Source: a virus (taxonomy: Duplodnaviria; Heunggongvirae; Uroviricota; Caudoviricetes). From it: a stretch of 22,225 nt of DNA. The first letter of the stretch is position 1; the number at the start of each line of letters is the position of its first letter. The position numbers were made by a program, and so were the translations under genes. Location of the stretch: the IMG/VR virus record IMGVR_UViG_2693429779_000006. One strand, given 5' to 3'. This document shows, piece by piece, positions 1 to 16,828 of this stretch. The notes below the pieces were generated by a model. It did not search any database. It was not told the origin of the DNA and worked only from the letters and a program-made list of their open reading frames with translations.

Positions 1-17
1 ATTACAACAACCATAAA

Positions 18-39
18 AAAAGCCCCATAAGGGGCTTTT
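18..39. terminator. Likely bidirectional rho-independent terminator downstream of the gene at 56..850
   Basis: Hairpin AAAAGCCCC-ATAA-GGGGCTTTT read directly, with an A-tract on the left and a T-tract on the right, so it could terminate transcripts from either strand. Confidence 0.5.
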
Positions 40-55
40 ATATATTTCATAACAC

Positions 56-850
56 TCATAGAATAGGAGAGTAAATTTCCACCTCAGGGTAATAAGCTCT
101 AAGGTAATTTATAAGACCTTCATAAGCATTAAGAAGAGATATTTTATGTGAAATCAAATCTTGTTCTATTATCAGTGCTTTATCGGATGGTAGCTCATCA
201 TAATTGAAATGACAAAGAAGATTATGATTCGCACCACCAAACACCTGAATGTTTCTATTATCGGAAATCGGCAAATGTCCAGATATGATAAAATCAATAT
301 TTTTATACGAATCAATAAAACTTTGGAAATGACCGTGGAGTAATTTATCATTTAAAGGATAGCTCGCTGGAAAATCCCTTAAAATACTATCAAACTGATC
401 TCCAAAAATAAGAAGATTGATGTGAAAAGAATTAGGTAAAGTTTCAACTAATGAACGTACCCTCGCAAACGGTGTAAAGTGGAAGTAAGCGTTTAAAAAG
501 TCCACATCTGACTGTCTTTTTTTATCTGAAAATAATGTATTATCGGTTGCACCCTGTATATAAGCCTCATGTTCACTTTTGATTTGATGCAATTTTTCTA
601 CTGTATAAGTGAATGGATCTCTATCAACAAGAATATGATCATTTGCACAAAGCAGGATAAGATTTTCATAAGAATTGTCATTTGCTAACAGGTCATCGCC
701 CCTTGGTCCTTTTGGGCTTTTGGCTATTACATGAGCCATTTGTCCGATGTGAACCTGCTCTTTAAAAAGAGAAGTTCGGCAAATATTACATTGCCCAGCG
801 GATAGTCCATACAATTTTTTTATTGCTGCTGTAGTAATTGCATCACTCAT
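56..850 (-). CDS. HNH endonuclease-motif protein with an uncharacterised C-terminal domain of about 170 aa
   Basis: N-terminal 75 aa contain C-N-I-C, then AHVIAKSPKGPRG, then ENLILLCANDH, which fits the HNH/His-Me finger layout of zinc ligands, catalytic His and conserved Asn. AGGA sits 8 nt upstream of the ATG. The C-terminal region has no motif I recognise. Confidence 0.55.
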   Translation of the reverse strand: MSDAITTAAIKKLYGLSAGQCNICRTSLFKEQVHIGQMAHVIAKSPKGPRGDDLLANDNSYENLILLCANDHILVDRDPFTYTVEKLHQIKSEHEAYIQGATDNTLFSDKKRQSDVDFLNAYFHFTPFARVRSLVETLPNSFHINLLIFGDQFDSILRDFPASYPLNDKLLHGHFQSFIDSYKNIDFIISGHLPISDNRNIQVFGGANHNLLCHFNYDELPSDKALIIEQDLISHKISLLNAYEGLINYLRAYYPEVEIYSPIL

Positions 851-910
851 AAATCAAATCCTTAGATTGCTATTTTATTAACTCAAAACACATATTAAAG
901 GAAAAATCTT

Positions 911-1204
911 TCAGCTTCCACCAACCATAATCAATAGCACTTGCAAAAGTTGTCCTAATGGAACTTGGATCACAATAATTCCAAAAGCATCAAGTACTGG
1001 TACTATGATCCAGTTATAGAGAATGATAAGGGTTAGTACAAAACCGAGGGCATTACGCCAGTGGAATGTTACCTTTTCAATCTCTTCTTTATTCGTTTCA
1101 ATCTGCCCTTCTACATTCGTTTTCTTTACTTCCTGTTCAATAGTTTTCTTCTTAATGAAAAAATCCAATCCTGACTTCAGAAACTCAATCAATATACTAA
1201 TCAT
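911..1204 (-). CDS. Small membrane protein with a charged N-terminal half and two predicted C-terminal TM helices
   Basis: Hydrophobic stretches ALGFVLTLIILYNWIIVPVL and GIIVIQVPLGQLLQVLLIMVGG at the C-terminus. Its start overlaps the stop of the upstream gene as ATGA. Confidence 0.45.
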   Translation of the reverse strand: MISILIEFLKSGLDFFIKKKTIEQEVKKTNVEGQIETNKEEIEKVTFHWRNALGFVLTLIILYNWIIVPVLDAFGIIVIQVPLGQLLQVLLIMVGGS

Positions 1205-1512
1205 TCAATAATCCCCACGGCATATACCCAAAAATGTTTACCCTTCACAAAGAGCTTTTTACTCTCAATTAGAAATACAGGCATCTTTTCACCCTGTAAT
1301 TCCCATTCAAGTACTTCACCAACTTTGAAATCTTTCTTCTTCTCATAAATAACGTTCATATAGCTATCAATCTGATAATTACTTTTCTTAACGACCTTTT
1401 GAAATTTCTTATCAAGAAAACATTTGTTAATTGGCATACTATTACCATCTGGTGTCATGCCATTTAGCTTAATCTTGCTTATTAAATCACCATAATGTTG
1501 CTCAAAATTCAT
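1201..1512 (-). CDS. Hypothetical protein, 103 aa, lysine-rich
   Basis: ORF with ATGA overlaps to both neighbours (1509-1512 and 1201-1204), indicating translational coupling. No recognisable motif. Confidence 0.45.
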   Translation of the reverse strand: MNFEQHYGDLISKIKLNGMTPDGNSMPINKCFLDKKFQKVVKKSNYQIDSYMNVIYEKKKDFKVGEVLEWELQGEKMPVFLIESKKLFVKGKHFWVYAVGIIE

Positions 1513-2087
1513 TGTCTACTTATCCTGAATGTTCCCTGAATACCGCTCATAATTACCCTTACACCATCATTGGCTTCCTTATAGAAGTCATAGATAAGGC
1601 GACGTTGTTTCTTCTCACGTAAGCCAATTACACGTTTGGTTTTCTTCTTGGTATCTTTCTTTGCGGTATCAATTAATCGTTCTTTACCATTCTTACCCTT
1701 CACTACCTTATATCGTTCACTTAAAAGATTCTTTTTCAGTCCTGAAATGTTGCCCTGCTTAGTTAATCTTGTAGATGAAGTAGGTATAAACTTATCAATT
1801 GCCTTTGGCTGTACCAGTACTTGATAAAGGTACTTAGCCTGAATATCTTTAACCATGATGGTCGATGTAACTGAATTTCTCCCAACCTTTCTATAGAAGA
1901 AAAGGATGGAACGTTGAGTAAAGCCCACTGCCCCACGGTCAACGCTATTATTCAAATCACCCTGCATTCTTTGGGATAGTAGCTTGGAACGTTTAATTAT
2001 TTCATTCTGGAATTGATTATTTAATCTAACTCCCTGCGTTTGTATATAGTTCCTTATACTACCAATCCCATTTATTCCACTTGCCAT
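1509..2087 (-). CDS. Basic (K/R-rich) hypothetical protein; possibly the separated DNA-binding part of a GIY-YIG endonuclease
   Basis: Lies in the same reading frame as the GIY-YIG ORF upstream, separated only by a TGA at 2097-2099 and three codons. Highly basic C-terminal half. Confidence 0.45.
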   Translation of the reverse strand: MASGINGIGSIRNYIQTQGVRLNNQFQNEIIKRSKLLSQRMQGDLNNSVDRGAVGFTQRSILFFYRKVGRNSVTSTIMVKDIQAKYLYQVLVQPKAIDKFIPTSSTRLTKQGNISGLKKNLLSERYKVVKGKNGKERLIDTAKKDTKKKTKRVIGLREKKQRRLIYDFYKEANDGVRVIMSGIQGTFRISRQ

Positions 2088-2096
2088 ATATTTACC

Positions 2097-2531
2097 TCAA
2101 TTCAAGTACTCCAATAGTTCCTGTACTATTCCGAGTAGTCTTTTTTTATCCTTTGCATTTGGTGATCTAATCTTACTCATCATTGCCAGATTCAAACATT
2201 CCGGTTTAAGCATCTGATGAAGGATCAGTATTGCCTCTACAATCATTACCTCTCGCATAGTTGCGAAGCACCATAGAATCGTTTTTGAGTACTGTTCACC
2301 ATTTTCAATTTTGTTTTTAACGACATTGGAACTACTGAGGTACTCACGCCAGCCATTTTCCTTTGAAGTGGGCTTTAGCTTTCTCGCATCCTTAACCCGC
2401 TGATAGATTTGCTTAGCACCGACATAATTAGAACCATCCTCAAACTGAAAGATATAAACGAAACCAGCATATTCACCGGATAACATTTCCTCCTCGCTCC
2501 AATCATCCGAGTATTTCCATTCACTCATCAT
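2097..2531 (-). CDS. GIY-YIG nuclease domain protein
   Basis: AGFVYIFQFEDGSNYVGAKQIYQRVKDAR matches the GIY...YIG...R core, with a downstream acidic residue in MREVMIVEAIL as the candidate catalytic Glu. AGGAA sits 6 nt upstream of the ATG. Confidence 0.55.
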   Translation of the reverse strand: MMSEWKYSDDWSEEEMLSGEYAGFVYIFQFEDGSNYVGAKQIYQRVKDARKLKPTSKENGWREYLSSSNVVKNKIENGEQYSKTILWCFATMREVMIVEAILILHQMLKPECLNLAMMSKIRSPNAKDKKRLLGIVQELLEYLN

Positions 2532-2538
2532 AAATATT

Positions 2539-2557
2539 CCTATAAATTCATTATAGG
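2539..2557. promoter_or_regulatory. Perfect 7-bp inverted repeat CCTATAA-N5-TTATAGG in the 36-bp divergent region between the GIY-YIG and lysozyme starts
   Basis: Read directly. Each half supplies an AGG Shine-Dalgarno-like element for one of the two divergent genes, so it may be an operator or an mRNA structure. Confidence 0.3.
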
Positions 2558-2567
2558 TATTTAGTAA

Positions 2568-3017
2568 ATGAGCGATTTAAAAACACGATTAAAAGAATAT
2601 GAAGGTACTAAAGAGTATCAGGCAAATTTGAAGTACTTCAGAAATGGGAAATTCTATCCATATGCTGATAGTTTAGGATGTAGTACTATTGGATATGGTC
2701 ACTTAATTCAGGCGGGAGAAGATTTTAGTACTGGCATTACTGAAAGCGAAGCAGACAAGTTACTATCTCGCGATTTAGCCAAAACAATTATGCAGGTACA
2801 GACATTAGGGTTAAATCTTCCCGATGACTGGAATGATTTTATTATTATCATGACCTTCCAGTTAGGTATTGGCGGGGTGAAGAAATTCCGTAAGATGTTA
2901 GCAGCCCTGAAAGCACATGATTACCTTGAAGCAATTAAACAGGCTAAGTGTTCTCTATGGTACAGGCAGACACCAAACCGTGTGAATTCCATGATTGCAG
3001 TACTTAAAAACAAATAA
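2568..3017 (+). CDS. GH24 (T4-type) lysozyme, putative endolysin
   Basis: Catalytic-region motifs in T4-lysozyme order: E in KEYEGT, D in PYADSLG, T in CSTIGYGH. No N-terminal hydrophobic signal or SAR segment. This is the only confidently coding plus-strand gene in the window. Confidence 0.8.
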   Translation: MSDLKTRLKEYEGTKEYQANLKYFRNGKFYPYADSLGCSTIGYGHLIQAGEDFSTGITESEADKLLSRDLAKTIMQVQTLGLNLPDDWNDFIIIMTFQLGIGGVKKFRKMLAALKAHDYLEAIKQAKCSLWYRQTPNRVNSMIAVLKNK

Positions 3018-3057
3018 AGAAAAGGCATAGTACGAATGACATACTATGCCTTTTTTT
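3016..3057. terminator. Bidirectional rho-independent terminator between the convergent lysozyme and 90-aa genes
   Basis: Stem GGCATAGTA / TACTATGCC with a 9-nt loop, preceded by AAAGAAAA and followed by TTTTTTT. Confidence 0.6.
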
Positions 3058-3328
3058 ATGGTCGTTGTTTCTGCTGAAGAATTGCAATAATCCTTTCAAT
3101 CTTAACATCAAGTTCATGGATTTGTGTTTCCAGTTTACTTAGTGTATCTCTCATCTTATCCTGATCATCCTCAATACGGGAAATACTACTTTCCAGTACA
3201 GCAATGGTAGTTTCAAGAGTAGCAACGCGAGTTAATAGATCATTCGTATCCTTTGTATTATCTCTAAAGATAGTATAAAGGAATACGCATCCAGAAATAA
3301 CAAGAGCTAAAATAGCACCGATATCCAT
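3056..3328 (-). CDS. Membrane-anchored coiled-coil protein; candidate lysis accessory (holin or i-spanin-like)
   Basis: N-terminal TM helix DIGAILALVISGCVFLYTIF followed by about 65 aa of heptad-like charged sequence. Convergent with the lysozyme gene. AAGGGA upstream of the ATG. Confidence 0.4.
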   Translation of the reverse strand: MDIGAILALVISGCVFLYTIFRDNTKDTNDLLTRVATLETTIAVLESSISRIEDDQDKMRDTLSKLETQIHELDVKIERIIAILQQKQRP

Positions 3329-3340
3329 ACTGAAATCCCT

Positions 3341-3385
3341 TTGTTGTTATTGTTATTGTTATTGTTATTGTTATTGTTATTGTAT
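3341..3385. repeat. Hexanucleotide simple sequence repeat, (TTGTTA)6 with degenerate flanking copies
   Basis: Six perfect TTGTTA units at 3344..3379 read directly, between the stop of the 218-aa gene (3385-3387) and the start of the 90-aa gene (3326-3328). It is out of frame with both genes. Confidence 0.9.
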
Positions 3386-4041
3386 TAATACCCTGTAAAT
3401 GTCGCCAATGCTATCTGGATACCATTATTCCCCATTGCCTGGCGGTAGGTTTTCTGGTTCTTTGAAACGTACTGTAGACTGAATGAAGTACTGGAATTAC
3501 GCCTGATAACCAGACCAGAGTACCCAATTACTGTACCATCATCTGATATGTTCCCCGGACATTGTGACCAGCAGAACCAGGGATCAGCTACTGGAGACGT
3601 TACCGTAATGGCAGTACTGAGATCGGTAGCCGCAGGTGCTGTCAAAAATCCCCTGATACGTGGCATTGTTGCCGCTGATGCAGCAGACCAGATTAAAGTA
3701 CCTTCTTCACTGAACACATCAAGAAAACCAGATGTGGGGGTAGCCGTGTGACTACTTGTCATGAACCTGCCCATGCCAGGCTGGAACATATAGGCACCAG
3801 GGAAACACCATGCCCCGTCTTTCTGTATCTGGAACCAGTACTGTGTTGTGTTCCTGTTAGCTACTACTGATGGCATAACGAAACCGAGCGATCCACCATT
3901 ACCGAAGGCACAGGTAAAGCCTGTGTAGTATCCCGTATCAGTTAGATTTCCCATGGCCTTTACTGCACCCGTCATTATCGACTTGTTAGTACTATCTATA
4001 GTCAGTGCACCCGCTGAATTATATACCTCGAAACCTGCCAT
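3385..4041 (-). CDS. Hypothetical protein downstream of the tail-tip gene, 218 aa
   Basis: Long ORF. N-terminus MAGFEVYNSAGALTIDSTNKSIMTG resembles the N-terminus of the adjacent 98-aa ORF. Gly/Ser/Thr-rich with several Cys and Trp. Confidence 0.5.
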   Translation of the reverse strand: MAGFEVYNSAGALTIDSTNKSIMTGAVKAMGNLTDTGYYTGFTCAFGNGGSLGFVMPSVVANRNTTQYWFQIQKDGAWCFPGAYMFQPGMGRFMTSSHTATPTSGFLDVFSEEGTLIWSAASAATMPRIRGFLTAPAATDLSTAITVTSPVADPWFCWSQCPGNISDDGTVIGYSGLVIRRNSSTSFSLQYVSKNQKTYRQAMGNNGIQIALATFTGY

Positions 4042-4042
4042 C

Positions 4043-4339
4043 TTACGCCGTCCACTTATATACGTTAAAAGTGTAGTTACCAGCTAACGGTGCATATGTT
4101 GGCAAATAAACCGCAGTAAATGACCCATTATTACAAAAGGCTGACCACTCATTAAAGGTATCACTGGCGGGGGCATAGTGTACAAACCAGCCTGTAGTTT
4201 TCATATTTGGTACTGATACAGTATAGGTCTGTGCAGAAGTAGCCTTGACAGTATAAGTACCCATAAAACGTATGTTATAATCAGTCAGATCTACTACTAA
4301 TACACCCGCTGCATTCCAACATTGTAATCCCTGTGCCAT
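4043..4339 (-). CDS. Hypothetical protein, 98 aa; short paralogue of the 218-aa neighbour
   Basis: N-terminus MAQGLQCWNAAGVLVVDLTDYNIRFMG parallels the neighbour. AGGAG sits about 8 nt upstream of the ATG. Confidence 0.5.
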   Translation of the reverse strand: MAQGLQCWNAAGVLVVDLTDYNIRFMGTYTVKATSAQTYTVSVPNMKTTGWFVHYAPASDTFNEWSAFCNNGSFTAVYLPTYAPLAGNYTFNVYKWTA

Positions 4340-4496
4340 AGCTCTTACTCCTGTAAATCCTTTTCTTCATTCCAATTGTTTCTTTTCCGCTAATACTGAA
4401 TGGGTTAGTACTGGTACTATTGAAAGTACGTTCATTAGATTTCATTTATGTATCCTTTTGAAATGAGGTTACAGTTAATAATCCCTGAATTATTTA

Positions 4497-8195
<3,699 letters not shown>

Positions 8196-13441: not shown

Positions 13442-16093
13442 TTATTTATTATTTAATAGCTGTTGTACTAAATCTTTTAGCTGATTAATTTCTTCTTGTT
13501 GGGCTTGAATAGCTCCCATCAAGTCCATCACTATTGGATTTAAATCAACACGTGGATGATCACGAGTGACAATCTCCCCTTCTATTTCAACTGTTTCTTC
13601 ATCATGCTTAATGTACTGCGGAGCAGTCAACTCAGCATCTTCGGCGATAACACCAAACCTAACCCTTTCTTGTTCATCATCCTTGTAGATAAACGTTACT
13701 AAATCTTGTGACATTATCCGATCTAATGCTTCAACTGGATTTGCTGGAGTTATGTCTCTTTTAAACTCACGACCTGATGTACCTTGAGCTTGCATTACTA
13801 ACCATCCAAACCATGTTGTACCGTTCCCGCCTCGTACTCTTAAAGTACCACCACCGTCTATCTGAAGCTGAGAGCGATTTGCCCCTGGGTATCTTTGCAT
13901 GTGCAATAAAGGGGAATATTTTTCACTATAGTTAATACCTGAGTCACCTGGCCCTGCATACATACCGTTAAAGGTGATGGTATTGGCATCTGTCGGTCCC
14001 GAAACAGCGGTATTAGTCATCCATCCTGATTGAACATCAGTTAGGATCGTTCCAGTCGGCCCTTTTAGCCCCCATAGTTTATCCTCTGCACCATTTTCAG
14101 AAATAAAAAGGGTGAGATCAGCCTGTCCAGTCTGTCCCATCGTTTTACCAACCCGAAAACCACCAGATATTTCAGTTGATGTACCAATGTTGCATATCGA
14201 ACGAATACGCCCTCCAGTTACATAACTACCAATTGCCGTAGAGGAAGGGGAAGAAGCAATAACATCCCATTGAGGACTAACTGAAGTACGACTACTCAGC
14301 AAGTTTTCAACCCAGCGTTTGGTAGTCGCGTCAGAATCAGAGACAGGATCTCCTGCTAAAGAAGTTGCACCCGTAGGACGAATCGCAGGCCATAACTCAG
14401 CCTGAGTCTTAACACCAGTACCGCCCTGCGGAATTGCTAATGCTTTCCAGCCAGTGAAAGCACCCGCAATATATGTAGCTGAACCCCATTGCCCTCCATC
14501 ATAAACCACTAATGCAGCGGAAGAATCAGCGGATTTAATAGTTGTTAAATTACTACCTTGATTAAAGCGATCCACCTGAAAGTTTAGGCGAGCACTCAAA
14601 GCATCTGTAGCCCCTGTCCCCCCCTGACCTATACCTAAAGCAATCCATCCAGTACCAGTACTTGCACCCCATGCCCCGTTATCCTGAATTCGGATACGGT
14701 TAGTCAGGTCATTACTCATCAGATCGGTGTACGTAGCACCCTGAGTCAAACGGTTCACCTGTAGGTTAGTACGTGCTGTAGAGAGACTGGATAGATCAGA
14801 AAGGTTACTCGCTTTCTTCATGGAAGCGGAATCAAGGGAAGTAATACTGTCAGCTAAAGCCGTTACCTCTGCATCTACTTCATCCATTGAGTAAACAGCA
14901 AGGTTAATACGTGCTTCTTCCACGTCCCCCAGATCACTTAGATTACCTGCTATCGTAAGCTGGGCATCATCTGTAACCTTCCCTAAGCCAACATCAGTAC
15001 TGGTAAGTACTACATCCTCACTGAGTACATGACCGTTGACCATACGTGTATCAGGTACTGAACCTGTATCTTCACTACTCAGTACTACATTTTCACTAAG
15101 TACATGACCGTTCACTGTACGCGTGTCAGGTACTGAACCTGTATCTTCACTACTCAGTACTATATCTTCACTGAGTACATGACCATTAACTGTCCGTGTA
15201 TCTGGTACAGAGCCGGTATCAGTACTGGTAAGTACTACATCCTCACTTAGAGGCTTACCATTCACAGTACGTGTATCAGGTACTGAACCTGTATCTTCAC
15301 TGTTCAGTACTAAATTGGCCGTGAGTGCATGGCCGTTGATGGTACGTGTAAGGGGTACGTATCGCCCGTCCATCTGTGTAGCGGTATATATGCGTGTCCA
15401 GGCGGTTGTAGCGTTCTTTGCATAGATACTTAGAGTACCCGTCTTTGTCATCGCAAGAGAACTTACAGTAGTGCCATCTACAAGCCCTACTCCCATCAGA
15501 TCCGCCCCGGCAGGATTGCCTGCTTGAGATGATGGTACTTTGATGAAGCTGTTACCCGTAGGTACTGATGGTGAGTACTGAGGTACATCCGTAGTGTTCG
15601 AACCTAAACCGTAGTCCCCCTGATAGATTGGCGATAGTGCGTTAATGGTCATTGCACGTGCGATCACATCATGTGGGGCAAAACTGTATGCCTTGGTTAC
15701 TACTGAACCTTTATCACCGTCCAACTTATAAGAGGTGATATAACCATTCACCATCGCATAAGTAATGGTATTTTCATCCTTATTCATCTGGTACTGAATG
15801 ATGATCTGGAAAAGCTGCTGAGACTTAGCGGCATTATCCAAGAATTGATGTGTAGGATCATCAGGTAGGTAGTTAACTACAATATCAAATGGTGCTACTG
15901 ATTTATCAGATAGTAGTACTGTCCTGTAATCACTATCATACGTTTCAAAATTATTTGCTTCTGAATTTATTGTTAAGGTTGGAAAAGTATTAATCTGTTT
16001 AATTACTACATTGCCTGCTCCCTGTGGTGTTCTGTTACCAATATCAGCATTATACTGTACTGATAATTCTCTTCCTGAGAAAATATCACTCAT
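13442..16093 (-). CDS. Chimeric tail protein: tail-tube-like N-domain, tandem tail-fibre repeats and a C-terminal S74-type intramolecular chaperone domain
   Basis: aa 1-150 are paralogous to the 157-aa major tail protein. aa 249-368 hold five 25-aa repeats (TRTVNGHVLSEDVVLSSEDTGSVPD). The C-terminus reads FKRDITP...ALDRIMSQDLVTFIYKDD...RFGVIAEDAELTAP, resembling the self-cleaving chaperone domain of tail fibres and tailspikes, and ends in a coiled coil. Confidence 0.65.
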   Translation of the reverse strand: MSDIFSGRELSVQYNADIGNRTPQGAGNVVIKQINTFPTLTINSEANNFETYDSDYRTVLLSDKSVAPFDIVVNYLPDDPTHQFLDNAAKSQQLFQIIIQYQMNKDENTITYAMVNGYITSYKLDGDKGSVVTKAYSFAPHDVIARAMTINALSPIYQGDYGLGSNTTDVPQYSPSVPTGNSFIKVPSSQAGNPAGADLMGVGLVDGTTVSSLAMTKTGTLSIYAKNATTAWTRIYTATQMDGRYVPLTRTINGHALTANLVLNSEDTGSVPDTRTVNGKPLSEDVVLTSTDTGSVPDTRTVNGHVLSEDIVLSSEDTGSVPDTRTVNGHVLSENVVLSSEDTGSVPDTRMVNGHVLSEDVVLTSTDVGLGKVTDDAQLTIAGNLSDLGDVEEARINLAVYSMDEVDAEVTALADSITSLDSASMKKASNLSDLSSLSTARTNLQVNRLTQGATYTDLMSNDLTNRIRIQDNGAWGASTGTGWIALGIGQGGTGATDALSARLNFQVDRFNQGSNLTTIKSADSSAALVVYDGGQWGSATYIAGAFTGWKALAIPQGGTGVKTQAELWPAIRPTGATSLAGDPVSDSDATTKRWVENLLSSRTSVSPQWDVIASSPSSTAIGSYVTGGRIRSICNIGTSTEISGGFRVGKTMGQTGQADLTLFISENGAEDKLWGLKGPTGTILTDVQSGWMTNTAVSGPTDANTITFNGMYAGPGDSGINYSEKYSPLLHMQRYPGANRSQLQIDGGGTLRVRGGNGTTWFGWLVMQAQGTSGREFKRDITPANPVEALDRIMSQDLVTFIYKDDEQERVRFGVIAEDAELTAPQYIKHDEETVEIEGEIVTRDHPRVDLNPIVMDLMGAIQAQQEEINQLKDLVQQLLNNK
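14990..15349 (-). repeat. Tandem 75-bp coding repeats (about 5 copies) inside the 883-aa gene
   Basis: Near-identical DNA units are visible directly, for example ...tcactgagtacatgaccgtt...acgtgtatcaggtactgaacctgtatcttcactactcagtact..., each encoding one 25-aa repeat. Confidence 0.85.
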
Positions 16094-16110: not shown

Positions 16111-16503
16111 TTATCTTGTCTTTTCCGTAACTTGAATATTTATCGTAAAGGATAGGGAAACCGAGCCAGTTATAGGATCTGTGACAATATCGGATTGTTC
16201 ATAAGAACACGAAAGCATTATTAAACCTGCATCACTGAATGCTGAAGTTTTCTCTTTATCAAAAGTACTAATAATCTGATCATAAGTGATGGATGGGGCT
16301 GTATTACCTGATTCTGGTTTAGGGGAAATCAGATACTGAATTGCAAAGTTACCTGCCCGGCGTTCATTGCTGAAACTTAAACTCGTTAATGAGTAATCAA
16401 AAGCAATTTGTTCAAATACATCAACATCACGTGATACTGTCAGATTCTTAGTAGCATTGATAAGCTGCTTCATCGTATTCCGTACTTTTTGTACTAACAT
16501 CAT
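16111..16503 (-). CDS. Head-tail connector / tail completion protein (gpZ or gpU position)
   Basis: The track ORF (16111..16581) overlaps the upstream gene by 77 bp in another frame. Start is re-set here to the ATG-ATG at 16503, with AGAGGA upstream, 1 bp after the upstream stop. Contains an LISPKPESG segment that recurs at the C-terminus of the 157-aa protein. Confidence 0.4.
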   Translation of the reverse strand: MMLVQKVRNTMKQLINATKNLTVSRDVDVFEQIAFDYSLTSLSFSNERRAGNFAIQYLISPKPESGNTAPSITYDQIISTFDKEKTSAFSDAGLIMLSCSYEQSDIVTDPITGSVSLSFTINIQVTEKTR

Positions 16504-16504
16504 A

Positions 16505-16828
16505 TTAGTAGTCCTCTGCAAATGAAGCACCAGCAGAAGTACGGAAATAGCAATTAACCATACCTGATAGATCATCTTCAATGTTATAGATTGTCTGGTT
16601 TACACCATCAATGATTAGTACTGTACCAATTGCCACGTTTGCGGTTATTAGATCGTCCTTTCTGATTGTTAGGTATGTTTCCACGCTTTCGATAAATCCA
16701 CCTGCCGCCTCAATAGAAACGGGAAGTACTTCTACTATTCCTGTAAAAGTACTTCCCGTACAAGTTTGGATAGACTGACCGAAAGCATTTAGAAACGCAT
16801 CACACTGCGTATCTTTAAATACTCTCAT
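16505..16828 (-). CDS. Head-tail connector / head completion protein (gpFII position)
   Basis: Small ORF directly downstream of the capsid gene. Called from position only. Confidence 0.4.
   Translation of the reverse strand: MRVFKDTQCDAFLNAFGQSIQTCTGSTFTGIVEVLPVSIEAAGGFIESVETYLTIRKDDLITANVAIGTVLIIDGVNQTIYNIEDDLSGMVNCYFRTSAGASFAEDY

What the first reader, a model, noticed from the sequence alone, without database searches (positions are those of the whole stretch)
911..1512. Translationally coupled pair: a small soluble protein and a small protein with two C-terminal TM helices
The 103-aa and 97-aa genes overlap by ATGA and form the tail of a four-gene minus-strand unit. A small cytosolic protein paired with a small membrane protein in a phage accessory region fits a toxin-antitoxin, superinfection-exclusion or lysis-timing module. 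The membrane protein could also be the holin that the lone lysozyme seems to lack.
Basis: inference. Interest (0 to 1): 0.45.

Follow-up and report, generated by a model that had tools for sequence, protein, structure and literature searches.

The report
Prophage holin beside an unrelated gene pair
The small membrane protein is the prophage's holin, already labelled as such in public databases, while the small soluble protein overlapping it belongs with the gene upstream (a probable tail-completion protein), so the "pair" is a packing accident and not a toxin-antitoxin or lysis-timing module.

Summary
ORFs of 103 aa (1201-1512, -) and 97 aa (911-1204, -) overlap by ATGA. Both are conserved in more than 60 related Enterobacteriaceae prophages, and the 97-aa protein has two C-terminal hydrophobic helices.

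The 97-aa protein is a PF11351 (GTA/3TM-type) holin. An identical Shigella sonnei/E. coli protein already carries that name.

The idea of a two-gene functional module is not supported:
- The 103-aa gene always travels with the upstream 192-aa gene.
- Their pairwise distances correlate at r=0.94, against 0.30 for the 103-aa protein and the holin.
- In four relatives the 192-103 pair sits directly after the J-like tail gene, and the holin then overlaps the GIY-YIG-like gene by ATGA.
- Phage DCP80 has the 192-103 pair but no detectable copy of this holin.

The 192-aa protein looks like a lambda gpZ / 80alpha gp51 tail-completion protein, at fold level only and with moderate confidence. The 103-aa protein is an orphan small beta-barrel with no assignable function. 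No toxin-antitoxin or defence signal was found. This is an ordinary late-gene arrangement of low interest.

The parts
911..1204 (-). 97-aa holin. It has a charged N-terminal domain of about 50 residues, probably cytoplasmic, followed by two C-terminal transmembrane helices.
   Evidence: PF11351 scores 25.0 bits against a cutoff of 24.8, and phrog_3427 'holin' gives 1.9e-4. An identical protein, P0001, is named '3TM-type holin'. It is the most conserved gene of the module, with mean pairwise distance 0.21 and pN/pS 0.18.
1201..1512 (-). 103-aa soluble protein of an orphan family with a small beta-barrel fold. It is the second gene of the conserved 192-103 cassette.
1201..1204 (-). ATGA overlap of the 103-aa stop codon and the holin start codon (translational coupling).
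   Evidence: Read directly. Among 61 loci, 36 have the 4-nt overlap, 7 have another overlap (1 or 8 nt), 14 have gaps of 1-11 nt and 4 are not adjacent. In L061 the holin overlaps the GIY-YIG-like gene by 4 nt instead.
1509..2087 (-). 192-aa basic protein (pI 10.8). Candidate tail-completion protein (lambda gpZ / 80alpha gp51 type) and partner of the 103-aa gene.
2097..2531 (-). 144-aa GIY-YIG (SegE-like) domain protein. First gene of the unit and syntenic in all relatives.
   Evidence: PF19835 at 2.1e-16. It is 41-64% identical and in the same position in all relatives.
2532..2567 (.). 36-bp divergent control region between the lysozyme gene and the holin-operon genes. It is an imperfect palindrome that contains TATAAT.
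   Evidence: In the alignment 80.6% of cells are paired, against 33-54% for slid controls. There are 21 cells with changes on both sides, a value reached by 0 of 500 shuffles.
2568..3017 (+). 149-aa soluble T4-type lysozyme (endolysin) on the opposite strand.
   Evidence: PF00959 at 1e-11. It has no hydrophobic segment. Synteny is conserved.
3020..3054 (.). Bidirectional terminator-like hairpin (15-bp stem) between the convergent 90-aa gene and the lysozyme gene.
3056..3328 (-). 90-aa protein with an N-terminal transmembrane helix and a coiled coil. Possible lysis accessory protein.
   Evidence: Weak matches to phrog_739 'Rz-like spanin' at 2.7e-5 and to PF10805 DUF2730. Transmembrane helix at residues 1-23. 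Syntenic in relatives.
56..850 (-). 264-aa HNH nuclease-like cargo gene downstream of the holin. Variable among relatives.
   Evidence: PADLOC SAVED-HNH effector at 4e-23 and PDC-M68A at 2e-21. Present in only a minority of relatives.
18..39 (-). Terminator-like hairpin that ends the minus-strand unit.

Best explanation
The window is the right end of a siphovirus-like prophage of Shigella sonnei and other Enterobacteriaceae.

The 97-aa gene is the phage holin, of the PF11351 '3TM-type/GTA' family. Its charged N-terminal half probably stays in the cytoplasm and two C-terminal helices span the inner membrane. At the end of the late period it would permeabilise the membrane and let the soluble 149-aa lysozyme, encoded 1.4 kb away on the other strand, reach the cell wall.

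The 103-aa gene is not a partner of the holin. It is the second gene of a two-gene cassette (192 aa + 103 aa) that is inherited, diverges and relocates as one unit. The 192-aa protein is most likely the tail-completion protein (lambda gpZ / 80alpha gp51 type), which is missing from the head-tail gene block of this phage. The 103-aa beta-barrel protein most likely works with it in virion completion.

The ATGA overlap with the holin reflects tight packing of late genes. The holin start is coupled to whichever reading frame lies upstream, and this probably sets a low holin dose.

Shown: gene structure, conservation, family match of the holin, and linkage of the 192-aa and 103-aa genes. Inferred: holin topology and hole formation, the tail-completion role of the 192-aa protein, and any role of the 103-aa protein.
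For: Holin:
- PF11351 scores above its gathering cutoff, and relatives also match.
- An identical protein is named '3TM-type holin'.
- Two C-terminal hydrophobic helices are present.
- The lysozyme has no SAR or signal segment.
- Lysozyme and holin are syntenic in about 65 loci.

The 103-aa gene belongs with the 192-aa gene:
- All 61 complete loci have the two genes adjacent.
- Pairwise-distance vectors correlate at r=0.94 for 103/192, against 0.30 for 103/holin and 0.50 for 103/GIY, over 1431 pairs.
- In L061, L062, L065 and L068 the pair lies directly after the J-like gene. In L061 the holin then overlaps the GIY-YIG-like gene by 4 nt, and the ORF coordinates of the other three loci fit the same arrangement.
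- Phage DCP80 has a 192-like gene (hhalign probability 98.7%, E 4e-16) followed by a weak 103-like gene (E 6.7e-4), downstream of its largest tail-region gene. Our holin gave no tblastn match at E <= 0.01 in any phage record.

The 192-aa protein as tail-completion protein:
- phrog_1924 links the family to lambda gpZ.
- The head-tail block has an FII-like 107-aa gene and a 130-aa gene in the terminator position, but no gpZ-type gene.
Against: - The holin match is marginal (25.0 bits against 24.8) and covers only profile positions 40-116. Only two of the family's three nominal transmembrane segments are seen.
- No similarity to ICP1 ORF136-139 was detected. ICP1 TeaA is reported as a remote PF11351 member, and I could not tell which ORF of this record it is.
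- No spanin was found, so the lysis set is incomplete as described.
- The 192-aa model has low confidence (pLDDT 67, pTM 0.48).
- Profile-profile comparison with a lambda gpZ family is not significant: E 0.02 over 26 columns.
- No PF06763, PF04883 or phrog_27 match was found.
- The 192-aa gene is not in the usual tail-completion position.
- The fold of the 103-aa protein does not settle its role. PilZ domains score higher than any virion protein, and BFVD gave nothing at E <= 1e-3.
- The holin start is coupled to the 103-aa gene in 57 of 61 loci, so a regulatory link is not excluded.
Confidence: 0.6

Rival explanations
1. The 103-aa protein is a cytoplasmic antiholin or holin regulator, analogous to T4 RIII. 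It would bind the 50-residue cytoplasmic N-terminal domain of the holin and delay triggering. Translational coupling would fix the ratio of the two proteins.
For: The holin start is coupled to the 103-aa gene by overlap or a gap of at most 11 nt in 57 of 61 loci. The holin has a long, conserved, charged N-terminal domain and no dual-start motif, so a separate regulator is conceivable. Soluble cytoplasmic antiholins exist (T4 RIII, cited in PMC7182436). The 103-aa protein is soluble and basic.
Against: Four relatives separate the 103-aa gene from the holin while keeping it next to the 192-aa gene. DCP80 has the pair but no match to this holin. The 103-aa protein diverges fast (mean pairwise distance 0.62) while the holin is nearly constant (0.21), and their distances correlate only at r=0.30. 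There is no match to any lysis-regulator family.
Confidence: 0.12
2. The two genes form a toxin-antitoxin or superinfection-exclusion/defence module carried as prophage cargo. The membrane protein would be the toxin or effector and the soluble protein its antidote or sensor.
For: The genes lie near the prophage end, next to a defence-like HNH nuclease gene (PADLOC 4e-23). A small membrane protein paired with a small soluble protein is a common layout for such systems (general knowledge).
Against: Neither protein matches PADLOC. Both are core genes at a fixed position in all relatives, whereas real cargo such as the 264-aa gene varies. The membrane protein belongs to a holin family and accompanies an endolysin. 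The soluble protein is linked to the 192-aa gene and not to the membrane protein.
Confidence: 0.04
3. The 103-aa protein is a PilZ-type sensor of c-di-GMP or a related ligand, or an adaptor, that ties a late phage function (lysis or assembly) to host signalling.
Confidence: 0.07
4. The 192-aa and 103-aa proteins are a late-gene pair with a role that is neither virion assembly nor holin control. One example: a cationic outer-membrane-disrupting or DNA-binding factor with its chaperone, standing in for the missing spanin.
For: No spanin candidate was found. The 192-aa protein is very basic (pI 10.8) and has a Lys/Arg-rich stretch. In this prophage group and in DCP80 the pair always lies close to the lysis genes.
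Against: Neither protein has a signal sequence or membrane segment. The best fold match of the 192-aa protein is a tail-completion protein. In four relatives the pair joins the tail operon.
Confidence: 0.15

Closest known systems
PF11351 GTA_holin_3TM ('3TM-type holin'; TCDB GTA-holin family, from memory; ICP1 TeaA is reported as a remote member)
   Same: The HMM match is above the gathering score. The protein is small, has C-terminal transmembrane helices and sits in a conserved neighbourhood with an endolysin. An identical protein already carries this name in UniRef, and close homologues carry it in NCBI records too.
   Different: Only two clear transmembrane segments are present, and the match covers profile positions 40-116 of 123. 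The charged domain is N-terminal and not a C-terminal tail. No detectable similarity to ICP1 ORF136-139, the region where TeaA should lie. No member this close has been tested experimentally.
Lambda gpZ / SPP1 gp16.1 / HK97 gp10 / 80alpha gp51 tail-completion proteins (Ne1), compared with the neighbouring 192-aa protein
   Different: There is no significant sequence or profile similarity. The gene lies after the tail-fibre and lysis genes and not between the head-closure and terminator genes. The gene that follows it is not a recognisable terminator.
T4 holin T with its cytoplasmic antiholin RIII
   Same: A small soluble cytoplasmic protein is encoded together with a holin that has a cytoplasmic N-terminal domain.
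   Different: No sequence or fold relation was found. The soluble protein is not tied to the holin in evolution. No lysis-inhibition evidence exists.
PilZ domain proteins (YcgR, MotI, PlzA)
   Different: The c-di-GMP binding motifs are absent. The helix lies before the main strands and not at the C-terminus. The genomic context is a phage late operon.

Membership tests
PF11351 GTA_holin_3TM / 3TM-type holin (97-aa protein) | Score against the family HMM at or above the curated gathering cutoff | tested here: met
   The score is 25.0 bits against 24.8, so the margin is thin. The relative in L061 scores 27.9. Those in L017 (24.2) and L075 (18.6) fall below the cutoff. Many close homologues carry a precomputed PF11351 assignment.
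PF11351 GTA_holin_3TM / 3TM-type holin (97-aa protein) | Three transmembrane segments | tested here: not met
   The Kyte-Doolittle scan finds two segments, about residues 50-71 and 73-96. The N-terminal 17 residues are amphipathic and do not pass the threshold. The HMM match lacks profile positions 1-39.
PF11351 GTA_holin_3TM / 3TM-type holin (97-aa protein) | Genomic association with an endolysin that needs a holin for export | tested here: met
   A soluble PF00959 lysozyme with no hydrophobic segment lies 1.4 kb away and is syntenic in about 65 loci.
PF11351 GTA_holin_3TM / 3TM-type holin (97-aa protein) | Membrane permeabilisation and endolysin release on expression | not testable with these tools
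   This needs expression and lysis assays.
Holin-antiholin pair (the 103-aa and 97-aa proteins together) | The regulator co-occurs and co-evolves with its holin | tested here: not met
   The two genes are separated in four loci. DCP80 has the 103-like gene but no match to this holin. The distance correlation is 0.30, against 0.94 with the 192-aa gene.
Holin-antiholin pair (the 103-aa and 97-aa proteins together) | Dual-start motif or a membrane/periplasmic antiholin domain | tested here: not met
   The holin has a single N-terminal Met and no internal start near the N-terminus. The 103-aa protein has no transmembrane segment.
Known toxin-antitoxin or anti-phage defence systems (PADLOC) | Match to a defence-system protein model | tested here: not met
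   The 97-aa protein has no match. The 103-aa protein has only a chance-level JetB match (E 0.014).
Tail-completion protein Ne1 (lambda gpZ PF06763, HK97 gp10 PF04883, phrog_27), tested on the 192-aa neighbour | Sequence-family membership | tested here: not met
   No Pfam or phrog_27 match was found. hhalign against an 8-member gpZ alignment gives E 0.02 over 26 columns. The only indirect link is the weak phrog_1924 matches shared with lambda gpZ.
Tail-completion protein Ne1 (lambda gpZ PF06763, HK97 gp10 PF04883, phrog_27), tested on the 192-aa neighbour | Fold: long N-terminal helix, beta element, C-terminal helix, as in 80alpha gp51 | tested here: inconclusive
Tail-completion protein Ne1 (lambda gpZ PF06763, HK97 gp10 PF04883, phrog_27), tested on the 192-aa neighbour | Presence in the virion at the proximal end of the tail | not testable with these tools
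   This needs virion proteomics or cryo-EM.
PilZ domain (103-aa protein) | RxxxR and (D/N)xSxxG c-di-GMP binding motifs | tested here: not met
   The family alignment A3 has no conserved arginine upstream of the barrel and no motif in register.
Head-closure/stopper (lambda FII, SPP1 gp16) or tail terminator (lambda gpU) (103-aa protein) | Sequence or fold membership | tested here: inconclusive

The most novel reading that the evidence does not exclude
The 103-aa orphan beta-barrel protein would be a new kind of soluble regulator. It could be PilZ-like or RIII-like and act on the holin's cytoplasmic N-terminal domain. Alternatively it could link tail completion by the 192-aa protein to the timing of lysis, so that cells lyse only when virions are finished.
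Probability: 0.08. Interest if true: 0.6.

Novelty: new member of a known kind. Interest (0 to 1): 0.2.

Why it matters
The result matters mostly as a correction.

- A start-stop overlap between a small soluble gene and a small membrane gene is not evidence of a functional pair. Comparative gene order shows that the real pair here is the 192-aa and 103-aa genes.
- The holin call explains how the lone soluble lysozyme gets out of the cytoplasm, and it agrees with existing database annotation.
- A modest residual point concerns a widespread but uncultured group of Enterobacteriaceae prophages. They appear to encode their tail-completion protein, together with an uncharacterised beta-barrel partner, outside the head-tail block and next to the lysis genes. 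They also have no recognisable spanin.

Tried and rejected
- Megablast of window 1-4500 and tblastn of the 97-aa and 103-aa proteins against 50,697 phage records found nothing. Complete E. coli genomes gave only one 82%-identical 260-nt match.
- Pfam, PHROG, NCBIfam and PADLOC gave nothing for the 103-aa protein, including scans of 24 family members at E <= 1.
- A profile search of the PDB sequence set with the 103-aa family gave no hit. phmmer of the 192-aa protein gave only chance hits.
- Foldseek against BFVD with the 103-aa model gave nothing at E <= 1e-3. The afdb50 library was not available.
- The 2045-aa 'homologue' P0162 is a low-complexity repeat artefact.
- ICP1 ORF136-139 were tested as the reported remote PF11351 holin TeaA. 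None matched Pfam, and hhalign of ORF137-139 showed no similarity to the holin alignment. I could not tell which ORF of that record is TeaA.
- hhalign of the 103-aa family against lambda gpU, FII and gpZ, and of the 192-aa family against gpZ, was not significant with single sequences or with 8-member alignments.
- The lipobox search for o-spanin or u-spanin ORFs in window 1-4600 found none.
- The sigma-70 promoter scan was at chance level: 18 sites found, 16.7 expected.
- RNAalifold on the MAFFT alignment of the divergent intergenic region gave no structure, so the palindrome had to be scored with a structure written by hand.
- Two related-loci runs failed because the alignments had no conserved stretch.

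Full report
**1. What is in the sequence**

On the minus strand, ORF 1201..1512 (103 aa) and ORF 911..1204 (97 aa) overlap by ATGA, with a GGGGA run 7 nt before the second ATG. The upstream 192-aa ORF (1509..2087) overlaps the 103-aa ORF in the same way. It is preceded, 9 nt away, by a 144-aa ORF (2097..2531).

The 97-aa protein has a charged N-terminal half and two hydrophobic segments, about residues 50-71 and 73-96. The 103-aa protein has no hydrophobic segment, signal peptide or lipobox.

The unit does not end with the 97-aa gene. No terminator-like site separates it from the 264-aa gene (56..850), and the first terminator-like hairpin is at 18-39. A 15-bp-stem bidirectional hairpin at 3020-3054 separates the unit from the structural late operon.

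**2. Where the window comes from**

The window carries a complete siphovirus-type structural module on the minus strand: large terminase, portal, a protease-capsid fusion, tail tube, tape measure and a J-like tip protein.

The 97-aa protein is identical to a protein seen on 551 contigs, mostly Shigella sonnei and E. coli. In S. sonnei 53G the region is the right end of a prophage next to mipA and gapA. No isolated phage in the INPHARED set is close.

**3. The 97-aa protein**

- It matches Pfam PF11351 (GTA_holin_3TM) at 25.0 bits against a cutoff of 24.8, and a PHROG holin family at 1.9e-4.
- UniRef names the identical protein '3TM-type holin', and NCBI and UniRef give that name to many close homologues.
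- The nearest lysozyme (2568..3017, + strand; PF00959) has no membrane anchor, so it needs a hole-forming holin.
- Lysozyme and holin stay together in about 65 related loci.
- The holin is by far the most conserved gene of the neighbourhood. Its mean pairwise distance is 0.21, against 0.44-0.62 for the neighbours, and its pN/pS is 0.18.

Caveats: the HMM match is marginal and partial, only two transmembrane segments are evident, and I found no similarity to ICP1 ORF136-139. ICP1 TeaA is reported as a remote PF11351 member (PMC7182436), and I could not tell which ORF of that record it is.

I take the holin assignment as likely (about 0.85).

**4. The 103-aa protein**

It belongs to a very small orphan family. 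There are 33 clusters in the 5.8-billion-protein set and 30 representatives in an exhaustive profile search of 1.84 billion proteins. Apart from one 2045-aa hit, all are at most 117 aa, so there are no fusions. The 2045-aa hit is a repeat artefact. No family library recognises the protein.

The AlphaFold model is confident (pLDDT 87, pTM 0.79) and shows a small beta-barrel with one helix.

- Flavin-reductase split barrels also appear.

The PilZ ligand-binding motifs are absent from the family alignment. BFVD gave nothing significant. The fold therefore does not name a function.

**5. Gene order settles the pairing question**

I collected 10 genome loci and 58 IMG/VR loci with the holin and located the neighbouring families with profile searches.

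- Nearly all of the complete loci have this order: J-like tip, (98 aa, 218 aa), 90 aa, lysozyme (nearly always on the opposite strand), GIY-YIG-like, 192 aa, 103 aa, holin.
- Four loci from four different metagenomes (L061, L062, L065, L068) have the 192-103 pair directly after the J-like gene. In L061 the holin then follows the GIY-YIG-like gene and overlaps it by 4 nt. The ORF coordinates of the other three fit the same arrangement.
- Across 54 non-identical loci, the pairwise-distance vectors of the 103-aa and 192-aa proteins correlate at r=0.94. The 103-aa protein correlates with the holin at 0.30 and with the GIY-YIG-like protein at 0.50.
- Phage DCP80 is the only isolate with any homologue. 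It has a 192-like gene (hhalign probability 98.7%) followed by a weak 103-like gene (E 6.7e-4, with shared NG..P.G.S.P and KKFQK motifs). The two genes lie downstream of its largest tail-region gene (1252 aa) and an endonuclease VII gene. Our holin gave no tblastn match at E <= 0.01 in any phage record. That record may be a chimeric assembly.

The stable unit is therefore 192+103. The overlap with the holin is positional. The holin start is coupled to whatever lies upstream: overlap or a gap of at most 11 nt in 57 of 61 loci with the 103-aa gene, and with the GIY-YIG-like gene in L061 (and apparently the other three).

**6. The 192-aa protein**

It is basic (pI 10.8). The model has only moderate confidence (pLDDT 67) and shows a 40-residue N-terminal helix, a beta region and a C-terminal helix.

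Evidence for a tail-completion role:
- That chain is 80alpha gp51, the tail-completion protein. The authors of that structure equate it with lambda gpZ, SPP1 gp16.1 and HK97 gp10 (PMC11661146).
- Eight of 29 family members weakly match phrog_1924 'minor tail protein' (best 6.3e-5), and lambda gpZ matches the same family at 1.9e-4.
- Between capsid and tube genes, the head-tail block has only an FII-like 107-aa gene and a 130-aa gene in the terminator position. No gpZ-type gene is there.

Evidence against: profile-profile comparison with an 8-member gpZ alignment gives only E 0.02 over 26 colinear columns, and no curated tail-completion family matches.

I rate the tail-completion reading at about 0.5-0.55. 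The reading that the 103-aa protein works with the 192-aa protein in virion completion is somewhat less likely than that.

**7. How the region most likely works**

Shown:
- A transcription unit bounded by the 3020-3054 and 18-39 hairpins.
- A chain of close-packed genes: a 9-nt gap, then two ATGA overlaps.
- A 36-bp divergent region shared with the lysozyme gene.

Inferred:
- Late in infection the unit is transcribed.
- The 192-aa and 103-aa proteins complete tails.
- Holin made at a dose set by coupling to upstream translation accumulates in the inner membrane with its N-terminus and C-terminus both on the cytoplasmic side. It triggers and releases the lysozyme.
- The 90-aa protein with a transmembrane helix and coiled coil (weak Rz-like and DUF2730 signals) may assist lysis. 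No spanin was found.

**8. Rivals**

- A cytoplasmic antiholin role for the 103-aa protein is not excluded (0.12). It conflicts with the relocation, with DCP80 and with the lack of co-variation with the holin.
- A toxin-antitoxin or exclusion module is unlikely (0.04). There are no defence-model matches, and the genes are in a fixed core position while true cargo varies.
- A PilZ-type ligand sensor is unlikely without the motifs (0.07).
- A different late function for the 192-103 pair, for example connected with the missing spanin, keeps about 0.15.

**9. Verdict**

The finding is real but ordinary. It is a known-family holin, already annotated, next to an uncharacterised gene that belongs to a different two-gene cassette. 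Interest is 0.2. Novelty: new member of a known kind.

Noticed in passing
window 56-850 (-): The 264-aa protein downstream of the holin has an N-terminal HNH nuclease domain. It matches CBASS SAVED-HNH effectors (4e-23) and the candidate defence family PDC-M68A (2e-21) in PADLOC. Only a minority of related prophages carry it, so it looks like defence cargo at the prophage end.
   Followed up: partly
window 2532-2567: The 36-bp region between the divergent lysozyme and GIY-YIG-like start codons is an imperfect palindrome (AAATACCTATAA..TTATAGGAATATTT) that contains TATAAT. In 26 relatives 80.6% of cells are paired, against 33-54% for slid controls, and there are 21 cells with compensating changes on both sides (0 of 500 shuffles reach this). 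G-U pairs occur on the holin-operon strand. It may be an operator, or an RNA hairpin covering the Shine-Dalgarno site of the first gene.
   Followed up: partly
window 3020-3054: A 15-bp-stem hairpin with an A-run on one side and a T-run on the other lies between the convergent 90-aa gene and the lysozyme gene. It is a likely bidirectional terminator that ends the structural late operon.
   Followed up: no
window 2097-2531 (-): The SegE-like GIY-YIG gene is not a recent homing-endonuclease insertion. It sits in the same place in all relatives and is 41-64% identical, diverging in step with its neighbours. Phage DCP80 has an endonuclease VII gene in the equivalent position before its 192-like gene.
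   Followed up: partly
window 2568-3017 (+); loci L070, L075: In nearly all relatives the lysozyme is the only late gene on the opposite strand. At least two relatives (L070, L075) have it co-oriented with the holin operon, so the gene has been inverted during the history of the group.
   Followed up: no
window 3056-3328 (-) and 1-4600: No lipobox-bearing ORF was found, so no o-spanin or u-spanin candidate. The only spanin-like gene is the 90-aa protein with a transmembrane helix and coiled coil, which gives weak matches to an Rz-like PHROG and to DUF2730 (the phage Mu releasin family), although the lysozyme here has no SAR anchor.
   Followed up: partly
window 13442-16093 (-): The 883-aa protein joins an N-terminal domain like a major tail tube protein (phrog_158, residues 2-150) to tail-fibre repeats and a C-terminal S74 intramolecular chaperone domain. 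It lies just upstream of the ordinary 157-aa tube gene and may be a fibre-bearing tube paralogue.
   Followed up: no
window 911-1204 and all related loci: The holin is far more conserved than every neighbouring gene (mean pairwise distance 0.21 against 0.44-0.62). Its distances are poorly correlated with those of the overlapping 103-aa gene. This implies a recombination boundary at the ATGA junction or unusually strong constraint on the holin.
   Followed up: partly
loci L002, L003, L004, L006 (Shigella sonnei genomes): Several S. sonnei copies of the prophage are interrupted by IS elements (in the J-like gene, and replacing the region upstream of the GIY-YIG-like gene) or carry frameshifts in the 192-aa and GIY-YIG-like genes. 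The element is decaying in that species, although the copy in this window looks intact.
   Followed up: no
window 16111-16581 (-): The listed 156-aa ORF starts at a TTG inside the preceding gene. The likely true start is the ATG at 16503, which overlaps the stop of the 107-aa FII-like gene. That gives a 130-aa protein in the position of a tail terminator.
   Followed up: partly
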